Below are positions 26,139-29,100 of a DNA stretch of 64,000 bases, piece by piece. Position 1 is the stretch's first letter, and every line of letters begins with the position of its first letter. The position numbers and the translations under genes are program-made. The notes beneath the pieces were generated by a model. That model was not told where the DNA came from and did not search any database. It worked only from the letters and a program-made list of their open reading frames with translations. Source of the DNA: a candidate division WOR-3 bacterium (GTDB lineage Bacteria; Hydrothermota; UBA3072); assembly GCA_023131835.1 (NCBI GenBank), contig JAGLZA010000024.1, positions 2,377 through 66,376 of the forward strand, in the 5' to 3' direction.

Positions 26139-29100
26139 TCACAGCATCTTCTTTATTAGCTCGTCCGCAGACAAAATCGGATTTTTCACACTTGTTTGTA
26201 TGGCTGCCCATGGGTCTTTTCTTCGTTTTTTGAGCTTTTCTTTATCTTTAGGTTTGATGGGTGGTTTGATTACGGGTGGAGGTGGTATTCTTAAGAATGG
26301 TGGTACATAAGGTGGAATAATTGTTACAGGAGGTTTGTAAGGTGGTGTTACTGGTGGTGTTACTGGTGGTGTTACTGGTGGTGTTACTGGTGGTGTTACT
26401 GGTGGTGTTACTGGTGGTGTTACTGGTGGTGTTACTGGTGGTGTTACTGGTGGTGTTACTGGTATTGACGGTGGAATAAATGATCTTGTAGAAATAACAA
26501 TCGATGGAAAAACAAAATGTTTATATGGTCTTTGTACAGATGGAACAACCCCTCTTACTTTTGGTATTAACTGTATCATATGAGGGATTCGCATTTTCCT
26601 ATCAAATATACCTAATCTTGGTGGAGCACGACCATAATAATCATACATACCATATAAATCTGTTCTCTTTCGGATATAACCATAATCATAATAATCATAA
26701 GGTGTTTTTTTCTTAATTACTTTTGGAGGTACTTTAGGTTTGAGTTCTTTAGGAAGCTTAAATGGTGGTCCAAACACTCTTATACTAGGAGCTAATGTAA
26801 CAGCAGCGGCTTTGGATTCCATCATGCCCATTATACTCCTTACTCTCATTTGAGTTTCAAGGAATTTGGTACCAGCAGGAGACAAAGCAGCTTGTACTAT
26901 TTCAGGTCTGACTTCTGCTAATTCTTTTTGTTTAAGAGCGTATTCTTCCCATTTTTTAAGAATACCTTCCATCTTTTTAACTTCTTTTAGTTTTCTCTCT
27001 CTTAATATTTTTGGAAGTGTCTTTGCTTTGATCTTTTCCATTTCTATTAATGTTTTCCCTTGTTGTACAAACCGAGCAAGATCTTTTATTCGGCGAGCCT
27101 TTGGTAGTAATAGTACTTCTCCTCTCTTCTCTATCATTTGAATAACCGAACCAAAACTTCGCTGAAATTCCTCACCTAACGTAGTTATTGGAATTTTTTT
27201 ATGTCTCATCCACCATGATTCTTTTACTCCCGTTGCTAATTCCACTTTTATTGGTTTCTGAGGTTTTAAACCAAACTCAAAGGGTTCACTCTTTGGATGA
27301 ACATCAAACACAGTCTCCCATGTTCCCTTTATCTTTTCAGCACCAATTAGAGTAGATCCCTTAGGAGAAATCTTAATCTTAACCGAATACATATGCCATG
27401 CTGGTTGAATATCTACTATAACATTCTCTCTACCAAGTATTTCTCTCATGGTATTTGCTAAATCATTTGCAGCTTTTTTAGGTGTTAAACCTTTAGATAC
27501 TTCTATATCTATGTCGTGTGGTGTTATTCCTCGTTCCATTTGTGCTCTCTTTGCTGCACTTCCATAAATCATTATTTGATGTCTATGTCTTCTAAGATAT
27601 GCTGCAGCTTTGCCTATTGCTGTCTTAGGCAAAAACTCTATTGCAGCTAAATCTATTGATTCTAATAACAATGATTTCTTTCTACCAAGTTTCTCAGACA
27701 AGTAAAAAGCTCCTTCATAGAGTTCTTTTTGTTTTGGTGCTAATAACCTCTTCATACTTGGAATTGTATACCTCGCTTCCAATCCTGTAAATACTCTCAT
27801 TCCTGTTGGTAGTTCAAATTTTGGTGTACCTACTGTTAAACCTCTAAAAGGTACACCTTTTGGTGCAGTTGTTATACCCACAACTGGTTTGATACCTCCA
27901 TAAGGGATACTGGATGGACGAGCTAAATATAAACCTCTATGCACAGCCATTTCTGGTGTCATAAATGTTACTTTCTTCACTAAAGGTATTCTACTTGGTT
28001 CTACCTTAGCAAGTTCTGCAAATCCTCCTGCCTCTTGGATTGCTTTTATCTCTTTCGGAACTCTTCCTAAGAAGGTACGTCTTGTTATGAATGTTCCTTT
28101 TCCTGTTGGAAACTTTAGTGGTCCAGTATACTTTATTGGAGAAACACGTCCAACTCCTTTTGTAATGAGAGCCATCCCAGCCATCTCACCTGCAAATTCT
28201 ACAGGTCGTTTGTAAGCCTCTCTTGTCATTCCTCTTGCCATAAATATTGATCCAGGTAGTGCAGCAGAAACCATGATTTTTGGTTCTCTAATAAGTGCTT
28301 CTCCTGCAGGTAATATCATACCACCAAACTGAACTAATGGAGCAGGAGCTTTTATCACACCTCTTCCAAACGCAATAAATTCACGAGCAATAGGTGTTTT
28401 TGGAAGTGGTTTTTCCATTATTGGTTCTATTTTTTTAGTGTACCACTGTGCAAATTTTCCTGTCTTTTCATAGATAGGTGCTGTCCAATATCTTCCTGCA
28501 GCCCACTCTTTAGAAGCTCCTTTAGGTGGAGTAGTTGCTGCTTGTGCTCGTGTTGTGAGCTGAACAATTCCTTCAGCTTTGTCTGTAAATCTCTTAATAT
28601 CACTTCCAAACGCCCCTGCTCCATATTTAATATTATACTTATCAATATGTCCATATTCTTCACTAAGTTTAGCAAGCTCCGGAGGTTTTACAGCTAAATG
28701 TTGTTGATACTTAGCCCATTCTGTTTCTTTATATGGGGTGTCTAAGATTACTTCACCTTTTGGTGTCTTCTTCCAACCCTTAAACTCCTTTTCCCAACGA
28801 GCTGATTCTGCTTGGTAGGTTGTTACAGGCTTGGTTCTTGACAAACGGTCCAAGTCGGACAAGTAAGATGAAAGAGTTACTCCTTTCTTAAGTCCAAGAT
28901 CTCTTTCAATTTGTTTTTCCCTTTCTTCGTACGAAATCCCCCCACCGACACCAAAACCAGTTTTTGTCATTCGCTCAGCTACTTGTTCAGCTTTTAATCC
29001 TTCTTTGATCCACATTCCACCCCTTATACCGAGCTTCTCACCAAGTTCTCTTGGCTTCTCTATAAGTATCTCTTTTGGTACTGATACAACTTTTCTTATT

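What the first reader, a model, noticed from the sequence alone, without database searches (positions are those of the whole stretch)
26341..26460. Perfect 12-nt x 10 tandem repeat inside a coding region
GGTGGTGTTACT repeats 10 times without a mismatch and stays in frame, encoding (PVTP)n. Perfect in-frame tandem repeats indicate recent expansion. They can act as a contingency locus that varies linker length. They have also been described as a hallmark of some archaeal extrachromosomal elements.
Basis: seen in the sequence. Interest (0 to 1): 0.5.

Follow-up and report, generated by a model that had tools for sequence, protein, structure and literature searches.

The report
Recent in-frame proline repeat expansion
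A perfect 12-base repeat (at least 10 copies) adds a run of Pro-Val-Thr-Pro to the floppy, fast-changing tail of a large uncharacterised protein from a cold-seep archaeal-type element; it is a real, recent slippage event of a familiar kind, and its exact copy number is not secure.

Summary
GGTGGTGTTACT occurs 10.2 times without a mismatch at 26341-26463. It lies in frame in a minus-strand gene (26139-29756) and encodes (PVTP)10.

The host protein belongs to an unannotated family of 134 relatives. Members share a folded core with a Pol-beta-type nucleotidyltransferase-like domain, then a roughly 150-230-residue low-complexity tail, a Lys/Arg cluster and a short conserved C-terminal peptide. The repeat sits in the tail, which AlphaFold predicts as disordered.

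No relative has a comparable perfect amino-acid repeat. A co-occurring variant from the same sediment is 100% identical downstream but carries degenerate KPPVY/KPPY units in place of the array. This points to a recent slippage expansion at a locally hypervariable site.

Five other assemblies break inside the array, three of them with 100-N gaps. The array is therefore real, with 67 nt seen independently, but "10" comes from one assembly and may be a lower bound.

It cannot act as a frameshift on/off switch. It is the only perfect repeat in about 134 kb of this element and its relatives, so the Borg-style "pervasive repeats" hallmark is not met, although GC, one-strand coding and archaeal affinity are compatible.

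Verdict: ordinary mechanism, modest interest.

The parts
26341..26463 (-). Perfect tandem array. Coding-strand unit is CCAGTAACACCA (given as GGTGGTGTTACT on the + strand), 10 full units plus 3 nt. It encodes (PVTP)10, ORF residues about 1105-1145.
26139..29756 (-). Host gene, 1205 aa from the ATG at 29756 (the longest ORF starts at the GTG at 29774, 1211 aa). Member of an unannotated family of large proteins.
   Evidence: gene start
29655..29699 (-). N-terminal motif D-x-D-x-DG-V-x-N-x-x-DC-x-P. It is shared with a second window ORF (21397-22209) and with many short proteins in the profile search.
26799..28121 (-). Confidently modelled folded core (pLDDT 85-97). It contains a Pol-beta-type nucleotidyltransferase-like domain with YGS (G738) and DIDIE (D754/D756) in ORF numbering.
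   Evidence: (near-invariant G and D)
26235..26786 (-). Low-complexity Pro/Val/Lys/Ile-rich segment of 183 aa, predicted disordered. It contains the repeat.
26142..26255 (-). Lys/Arg cluster (KPKDKEKLKKRRKD) followed by the conserved C-terminal peptide PWAAIQTSVKNPILSADELIKKML.
26313..26340 (-). Segment immediately 3' of the array on the coding strand (PYKPPVTIIP). It holds a degenerate unit CCTGTAACAATT. Identity between the two alleles starts at 26312.

Best explanation
The array is a young, in-frame coding minisatellite. It was produced by replication slippage or unequal exchange inside an already proline-rich, low-complexity, disordered tail of a large conserved protein.

Shown:
- The array is perfect, in frame, and uses the gene's preferred Pro, Val and Thr codons.
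- It sits between a folded core with a Pol-beta-nucleotidyltransferase-like domain and a basic cluster plus a conserved C-terminal peptide.
- All family members have a low-complexity segment there. Its length is similar (about 150-230 residues, median 180; here 183), but its composition is unrelated between clades (P/Y/K, S/P/I or R/E).
- A second allele with degenerate units coexists in the same sediment sample.

Inferred:
- One PPVT unit, present once in a relative, was amplified and replaced older heterogeneous units.
- The segment works as a flexible, polyproline-like spacer or tether. Selection acts on its length and disorder rather than its sequence.
- Slippage is the mutational route by which the segment turns over.
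- The protein is probably intracellular or particle-internal rather than a glycosylated surface protein.
For: - Perfect array, in frame.
- Preferred codons CCA, GTA and ACA.
- Family of 134 proteins (30 below 1e-30) among 1.84 billion representatives.
- Conserved architecture and tail-length statistics.
- No perfect amino-acid repeats in the other 135 members.
- P0010 has a single ...TPPVTPPYVPP...FLRIPPP at the homologous site.
- AlphaFold model has pLDDT 85-97 for the core and below 50 for residues 982-1187, which include the repeat.
- Allele B (L010, run SRR13892597 = sample RS_15) is 100% identical to window 24335-26312, then reads ...KPPVYKPPVKPPVYKPPYKPPSKPSIKPPVYKQPPYEPPYKPPYEPP. Allele A junctions occur in the ENA scaffold of the same sample (L006).
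- The target has 0 N-x-S/T sequons, against 47 and 158 in the neighbouring giant proteins.
Against: - No read-level data, so neither slippage nor copy-number variation was observed directly.
- Only 149 nt of allele B are known. It could belong to a closely related recombinant element rather than to the same population.
- The tether function is inferred from architecture alone. The family has no characterised member, and the nucleotidyltransferase assignment rests on moderate structural scores with no Pfam or PDB sequence match.
- The similar tail length across the family was measured on a difficult alignment.
Confidence: 0.75

Rival explanations
1. The array is real but the copy number is an assembly product. 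The true array is longer than 10 units, or heterogeneous, and the window's assembler emitted the shortest path through a de Bruijn loop or filled a gap.
For: - Three ENA scaffolds from three samples (L006, L009, L018) carry a 100-N gap at identical breakpoints inside the array, where the window has 48 nt.
- A Logan contig ends 2.4 units into the array.
- Reads are 2x150 and the array is 123 nt. The published assembly used MEGAHIT with k = 21...119, 141.
- By my calculation, 123 nt is exactly the shortest array length of at least k-1 in the correct phase for k = 113-124, which includes k = 119.
- The Borg repeat paper reports that assemblers often collapse such regions.
Against: - A 123-nt array is shorter than k = 141 and than the reads, so it could have been genuinely spanned.
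- The window's assembler is not known.
- This rival changes the number of units, not the nature of the feature.
Confidence: 0.35
2. The repeat is one instance of a Borg- or mini-Borg-type, element-wide repeat-generating process. The window would belong to a Borg-family extrachromosomal element of a methane-cycling archaeon.
For: - GC about 0.33 and nearly all genes on one strand.
- Perfect repeat divisible by three, with CCA/ACA codons, an A-rich coding strand and a disordered product, as described for Borg amino-acid repeats.
- The neighbouring AglB has only archaeal named relatives (Euryarchaeota, Halobacteriota, Methanosarcinales, ANME-1).
- Borgs and mini-Borgs are now reported from marine sediments.
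- There is a large 'cell decoration' gene cluster.
Against: - Only one qualifying repeat in 64 kb, none in about 17 kb of extra flank of the same element, and none in about 53 kb of non-redundant sequence from relatives. At the published Borg density (460 regions in 10 genomes, 0.62% of sequence) several would be expected.
- No Borg core marker (PolB, Herpes_ori_bp, ClpP, TROVE and others) appeared in Pfam scans of the window ORFs.
- The protein family has no named NCBI relatives.
- Short-read assemblies under-report repeats, so the census is biased low.
Confidence: 0.12
3. It is a contingency locus in the classical sense: a hypermutable tract that switches the gene on and off, or changes an exposed antigenic or receptor-binding surface protein.
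For: The locus is polymorphic in the population. The neighbourhood encodes giant, sequon-rich, probably surface-exposed proteins.
Against: - The 12-nt unit keeps the frame at any copy number, so there is no phase variation.
- The protein has no signal peptide-like N-terminus, no membrane segment and no N-glycosylation sequon.
- It contains an enzyme-like core.
Confidence: 0.04
4. The repeat functions at the DNA level (iterons, protein-binding sites or a structured element) and only incidentally overlaps an ORF.
For: Ten identical, directly repeated 12-mers resemble iteron arrays in form.
Against: - It lies where every family member has coding low-complexity sequence.
- Neither strand folds better than shuffled sequence (z = +1.8 and +1.7).
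- There is no Rfam hit.
- The units are contiguous and unspaced, and the ORF is maintained.
Confidence: 0.03

Closest known systems
Amino-acid tandem repeats (aaTRs) of Borg extrachromosomal elements (Schoelmerich et al. 2023, PMC9879509)
   Same: Perfect head-to-tail nucleotide repeat inside an ORF. Unit divisible by three. CCA (Pro) and ACA (Thr) codons and an A-rich coding strand. Creates or extends an intrinsically disordered region. Locus differs between close relatives. Breaks short-read assemblies. The host DNA is low-GC, coded on one strand and of archaeal type.
   Different: A single repeat rather than dozens per genome. It lies within a region that is already low-complexity in all homologues, not a new disordered region in an otherwise ordered protein. 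No Borg markers were seen. The sample is a marine cold-seep sediment and no Methanoperedens link was shown.
In-frame coding minisatellites (VNTRs) in microbial proteins, such as size-variable repeat regions of bacterial and fungal surface proteins (from general knowledge)
   Same: Arises by slippage or unequal recombination. The unit is a multiple of three. It changes protein length without changing frame, and repeats are homogenised at the DNA level.
   Different: Those are usually secreted or wall-anchored adhesins and antigens. This protein lacks secretion signals and sequons and carries an enzyme-like core.
Proline-rich spacers such as Pro-Thr linkers of glycoside hydrolases and the TonB (EP)n(KP)n rod (from general knowledge)
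   Same: Pro-rich, extended, low-complexity connector between functional modules. Length matters more than sequence.
   Different: No evidence here of secretion, O-glycosylation or membrane spanning. The connected modules are uncharacterised.
Pol-beta-superfamily nucleotidyltransferases (MNT/MenT/ANT type; poxvirus and Megavirus poly(A) polymerase catalytic domains), as neighbours of the host protein's core
   Different: No Pfam or PDB sequence match. The domain is embedded in a 1000-1500-residue protein with extra helical and beta domains and the disordered tail. Activity is unknown.

Membership tests
Borg / mini-Borg tandem repeats | Perfect head-to-tail nucleotide repeat, at least 50 nt and at least 3 units | tested here: met
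   123 nt, 10.2 units, 100% identity; criterion from PMC9879509
Borg / mini-Borg tandem repeats | Genic repeats have units divisible by three and do not disrupt the ORF | tested here: met
   12-nt unit inside a 1205/1211-aa ORF
Borg / mini-Borg tandem repeats | Repeats pervasive across the genome (460 regions in 10 genomes; 0.62% of sequence) | tested here: not met
   One repeat in the 64-kb window (0.19%). None in L004/L012 flanks of the same element or in relatives L001-L003, L016 and L017. Caveat: uncurated short-read contigs under-report repeats.
Borg / mini-Borg tandem repeats | Unit number varies within a population | tested here: inconclusive
   No reads available. Five assemblies break in the array and a different allele coexists in sample RS_15, but no copy-number series was seen.
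Borg / mini-Borg elements | GC 30-35% and unidirectional coding per replichore | tested here: met
   GC 0.30-0.40 per 2-kb bin, mostly about 0.33. 46 of 69 ORFs of at least 100 aa are on the minus strand, and most of the plus-strand ones overlap them, apart from a small plus-strand block at 37.3-40.2 kb.
Borg / mini-Borg elements | [quoted passage not shown] | tested here: inconclusive
   No such Pfam domains in the window ORFs scanned. Only 64 kb was examined and no Borg marker set was available.
Borg / mini-Borg elements | Linear genome with long inverted terminal repeats; Methanoperedens host | not testable with these tools
   The window is internal to a contig. The sample is marine cold-seep sediment.
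Classical contingency (phase-variable) locus | Change in repeat number shifts the reading frame or promoter spacing and switches expression | tested here: not met
   The unit is 12 nt and lies in the coding region near the 3' end of the gene.
Pol-beta-superfamily nucleotidyltransferase (host protein core) | hG[GS] ... [DE]h[DE]h catalytic signature | tested here: met
   IYGS...HDIDIEV at ORF residues 736-758. The G and D are at least 90% conserved in 48 sequences.
Pol-beta-superfamily nucleotidyltransferase (host protein core) | Fold similarity to solved members | tested here: met
Pol-beta-superfamily nucleotidyltransferase (host protein core) | Match to a curated sequence family (such as Pfam NTP_transf_2) | tested here: not met
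   No Pfam, PHROG or PDB sequence match
Secreted Pro-Thr-linker glycoproteins | Signal peptide or membrane anchor and glycosylation sites | tested here: not met
   Polar, basic N-terminus, no hydrophobic segment, 0 N-x-S/T sequons against 47 and 158 in the neighbouring giant proteins. No signal-peptide predictor was run.

The most novel reading that the evidence does not exclude
The window may belong to an undescribed lineage of large (well over 80 kb), low-GC, one-strand-coded elements of marine methane-cycling (Halobacteriota, Methanosarcinales or ANME-type) archaea. It was mis-binned in GenBank as a WOR-3 bacterium. The element carries its own N-glycosylation machinery, giant glycoproteins and a signature giant nucleotidyltransferase-fold protein. 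That protein's disordered tether is remodelled by the same kind of perfect-repeat slippage that characterises Borgs. This would be a Borg-like evolutionary mechanism outside the known Borg family.
Probability: 0.2. Interest if true: 0.65.

Novelty: new member of a known kind. Interest (0 to 1): 0.35.

Why it matters
On its own, the repeat is a textbook example of how low-complexity protein segments turn over by slippage. It is also a practical warning: it breaks five other assemblies, hides the gene from gene callers, and leaves the copy number uncertain.

It matters slightly more as a marker. It flags a conserved but entirely unannotated family of giant proteins (134 relatives on contigs up to 178 kb) in an archaeal-type, low-GC, one-strand-coded element from cold-seep sediment. 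That element appears to be mislabelled as bacterial in GenBank. If the element proves to be a new large archaeal virus or extrachromosomal element, the repeat would extend Borg-style creation of disordered regions to another lineage.

Tried and rejected
- Pfam and PHROGs on the host protein and about 50 neighbouring ORFs gave nothing for the host protein or for most small ORFs.
- An Rfam scan and a tRNA scan of the window found nothing.
- Exact look-up of the 1211-aa and 1205-aa products found neither on record. This was later explained: N gaps in the public scaffolds prevent the gene from being called.
- Word-indexed homology searches found only 4 relatives. The exhaustive profile search was needed.
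- Scans of the genome, viral and metagenome contig collections, using automatic patterns and two hand-made degenerate patterns (GVYSTTFGYVKP and PWAAIQTxVKNPI), returned no loci. The patterns do match the window, L001 and L003, so those collections simply lack the family.
- tblastn against GenBank phages found no match.
- The PDB sequence profile search gave only low-complexity noise.
- Foldseek against BFVD viral models found nothing significant. The afdb50 library was unavailable.
- DNA folding of the array showed no structure on either strand, so hairpin or structured-DNA ideas were dropped.
- Cluster look-ups of 20 family members gave no organism names.
- The ANME-1 'hotspot' paper had nothing relevant.
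- The surface-linker (O-glycosylated Pro-Thr linker) idea was dropped after the sequon count.

Full report
**1. The observation**

Window 26341-26460 contains ten exact copies of GGTGGTGTTACT, and the periodicity runs three bases further (TRF: period 12, 10.2 copies, 100% matches; exact scan). It is the only perfect tandem repeat of at least 3 units and at least 36 nt in the window.

The array lies in the minus-strand ORF 26139-29774 (1211 aa). Gene callers in sister assemblies start the gene at the ATG at 29756, four bases after the upstream gene.

**2. The protein that carries it**

The protein has no Pfam, PHROG or PDB sequence match. Word-indexed searches found only four relatives. An exhaustive profile search found 134 proteins with E at or below 1e-3 and 30 below 1e-30 among 1.84 billion representatives.

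Alignment and inspection show a shared plan:
- often an N-terminal D-x-D-x-DG...DC-x-P motif;
- a helical region;
- a conserved core with a nearly invariant G (YGS) and D (DxD);
- a low-complexity stretch;
- a Lys/Arg cluster;
- a short conserved C-terminal peptide, here PWAAIQTSVKNPILSADELIKKML, which is almost identical in P0002, P0004, P0011 and P0135.

An AlphaFold model built with 48 homologues has pLDDT 85-97 for model residues 540-980. It has pLDDT below 50 for residues 982-1187, which include the repeat.

The protein has no N-x-S/T sequon, whereas the neighbouring 1521-aa and 2518-aa proteins have 47 and 158, more than twice the number expected. It has no hydrophobic N-terminus either. 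I infer it is not an exposed glycoprotein.

**3. The repeat within the family**

Measured from the end of the folded core to the basic cluster, the low-complexity stretch is mostly 148-231 residues long, with a median of 180. In the window protein it is 183, including the 40 repeat-encoded residues.

Its composition differs by clade (P/Y/K, S/P/I or R/E). What is kept is a disordered spacer of roughly constant length, not a sequence.

None of the 135 other members has a perfect amino-acid repeat of at least 3 copies and at least 9 residues; only SRPx3 and PYSx3 occur. P0010 has a single ...TPPVTPPYVPP...FLRIPPP at the homologous site. This fits amplification of one pre-existing unit. The repeat uses the gene's preferred codons.

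**4. Related genomes**

[quoted passage not shown] Sequencing was Illumina 2x150, and the original assembly used MEGAHIT with k up to 141.

Public re-assemblies of sister samples are 99.9-100% identical to the window but all fail at the array:
- ENA scaffolds L006 (RS_15), L009 (RS_12) and L018 (RS_13, the 180-kb scaffold_9) carry a 100-N gap with identical breakpoints. They keep 67 nt of array on the 5' side and 8 nt on the 3' side. The window has 48 nt where they have Ns.
- Logan contig L015 ends 2.4 units into the array.

These gaps explain why the gene is not called and the protein is not on record. The array and both junctions are thus independently confirmed, but the figure of ten units is not.

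By my calculation, 123 nt is exactly the shortest in-phase path through a k = 113-124 de Bruijn loop, and MEGAHIT uses k = 119. Ten units should therefore be read as a possible lower bound.

**5. A second allele**

Logan contig L010, from the same sample as L006 (RS_15), is 100% identical to window 24335-26312. Upstream of that point it reads YKPKPPVYKPPVKPPVYKPPYKPPSKPSIKPPVYKQPPYEPPYKPPYEPP|YVPPFLRIPPPP....

Aligned with the window, it has degenerate 12-15-nt units of similar total length where the window has the perfect array. Its KPxVYKP style resembles the relatives P0002 and P0135.

The locus is therefore polymorphic between otherwise identical genomes. The heterogeneous version looks older and the perfect array looks derived. 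Only 149 nt of allele B are known.

**6. Mechanism**

Best-supported reading (confidence 0.75): slippage or unequal exchange recently amplified a PPVT-coding unit inside a disordered proline-rich tether. The tether links an enzyme-like core to a basic patch and a terminal docking-type peptide. The change alters tether length or stiffness but not the reading frame.

The slippage step and the tether function are inferred. The architecture, the disorder prediction, the perfection of the array, the family comparison and the polymorphism are shown.

Neither DNA strand of the array folds better than shuffled controls, so no special DNA structure is indicated. A 12-nt unit cannot give phase variation, which excludes a classical contingency switch.

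**7. Genomic setting**

The window has GC of about 0.33 and is almost entirely coded on the minus strand. It has no tRNA or Rfam hit.

- Positions 40-64 kb hold a glycan-synthesis cluster: GT4 glycosyltransferases, radical-SAM and B12 enzymes, methyltransferases, epimerases, DegT and a flippase. It continues into an AglB oligosaccharyltransferase just outside the window.
- Positions 1-37 kb hold dark-matter genes, two giant sequon-rich proteins, small membrane proteins, and at least six NUMOD3, zinc-finger or HNH homing-endonuclease-like genes.

The block zf-Di19 protein, 135-aa gene, 119-aa gene, giant protein, about 100-aa membrane proteins, then giant CarboxypepD_reg proteins and an HNH gene is syntenic in relatives L003, L016 and L017.

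GenBank holds the window's proteins (MCK4525995-MCK4526057) under 'candidate division WOR-3 bacterium'. The adjacent AglB, however, has only archaeal named relatives: Euryarchaeota 68%, Halobacteriota, Methanosarcinales, ANME-1, Methanothrix and Methanoregula. I take the bacterial label to be a binning error.

No capsid, terminase or replication hallmark was recognised. Whether this is a virus, an extrachromosomal element or a variable chromosomal island is unresolved.

**8. Comparison with Borgs**

The repeat itself matches the published description of Borg amino-acid repeats: perfect, divisible by three, CCA/ACA codons, disordered product, and assembly breaks. The DNA has Borg-like GC and strand bias, and Borgs and mini-Borgs are now reported from marine sediment.

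The defining abundance of repeats is absent. There is one in the window and none in about 70 kb of further non-redundant sequence from this element and its relatives. At Borg density about 3-4 would be expected per 64 kb. No Borg core marker was seen. Membership is not supported, although it is not excluded for lack of a marker set (probability about 0.12).

**9. Verdict**

This is a real feature with a familiar mechanism: a young coding minisatellite in a disordered tail. It counts as a new member of a known kind. Interest is modest at 0.35. The interest comes mainly from the unannotated giant-protein family and the probably mislabelled archaeal-type element that the repeat points to.

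Noticed in passing
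L010:1-149 (against window 26313-26480): A second allele of the Pro-rich segment (KPPVY/KPPY degenerate units) occurs in the same sediment sample. It is 100% identical to the window for the next 2 kb downstream.
   Followed up: partly
window 1-64000; L004:2-712: The window's proteins are in GenBank as MCK4525995-MCK4526057 (locus tag KAW18_) under 'candidate division WOR-3 bacterium'. The adjacent AglB oligosaccharyltransferase has only archaeal named relatives (Euryarchaeota, Halobacteriota, Methanosarcinales, ANME-1). The contig is probably mis-binned.
   Followed up: partly
window 22096-22140 (ORF 21397-22209) and 29655-29699: Two different proteins share the N-terminal motif PF-D-x-D-x-DG-V-P-N-x-x-DC-x-P-x-DP. 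Dozens of short database proteins match only this module in the profile search. It may be a common docking or Ca-binding module.
   Followed up: no
window 2262-3083, 10908-11774, 13437-14654, 25044-26114, 33117-34094, 36052-37005: There are six NUMOD3, ROS/MucR-type zinc-finger or HNH homing-endonuclease-like genes within 37 kb. This density is typical of large viruses and mobile elements.
   Followed up: partly
window 3092-10648 and 14694-19259: Giant proteins of 2518 and 1521 aa (DUF2341, Ig-like and CarboxypepD_reg domains) carry 158 and 47 N-x-S/T sequons, 2.3-2.7 times the number expected. The 1521-aa protein has a signal-like N-terminus and C-terminal membrane segments. They sit next to a 24-kb glycan-synthesis cluster and AglB.
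   Followed up: partly
window 24368-24673 and 24726-25040: Two paralogous proteins of about 100 aa begin ...NKKGVSI followed by a hydrophobic helix. This resembles archaeal class III (pilin-like) signal peptides. A homologous ~100-aa gene also follows the giant gene in L003, L016 and L017. No Pfam pilin match was found.
   Followed up: partly
P0005, P0135, P0029, P0031 (relatives): Some family members carry insertions in the core. One is a HExxH-like motif (LFHELTH...). The other is an HNH- or intein-like block (GGTDRLQFHHIVKTGKGEAG). Both are absent from the window protein.
   Followed up: no
L006:4386-4485 (window 30974-31026): A second 100-N scaffold gap in one sister assembly falls at the 3' end of the 299-aa gene, in sequence that is not repetitive in the window. 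The cause is unknown.
   Followed up: no
window 29150-29630 (ORF residues about 48-82 and 157-189): There is an internal duplication of a ~33-residue module, KPLPSYVxPSTKEAYxELKxxGYDVSAYRSxFE, in the N-terminal part of the host protein. It is also duplicated in P0001.
   Followed up: no
window 29360-29422 and 11434-11532: Two imperfect tandem repeats. One has period 24, 2.7 copies and 87% identity, inside the same giant gene. The other has period 36, 2.8 copies and 73% identity, in a NUMOD3 gene. They look like older, decayed duplications.
   Followed up: no
L012:12022-15433 (just beyond window position 1): A MoxR-type AAA_5 ATPase, a VWA/CobT-like protein and an RRXRR-HNH endonuclease continue the same-strand gene array beyond the window.
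   Followed up: no
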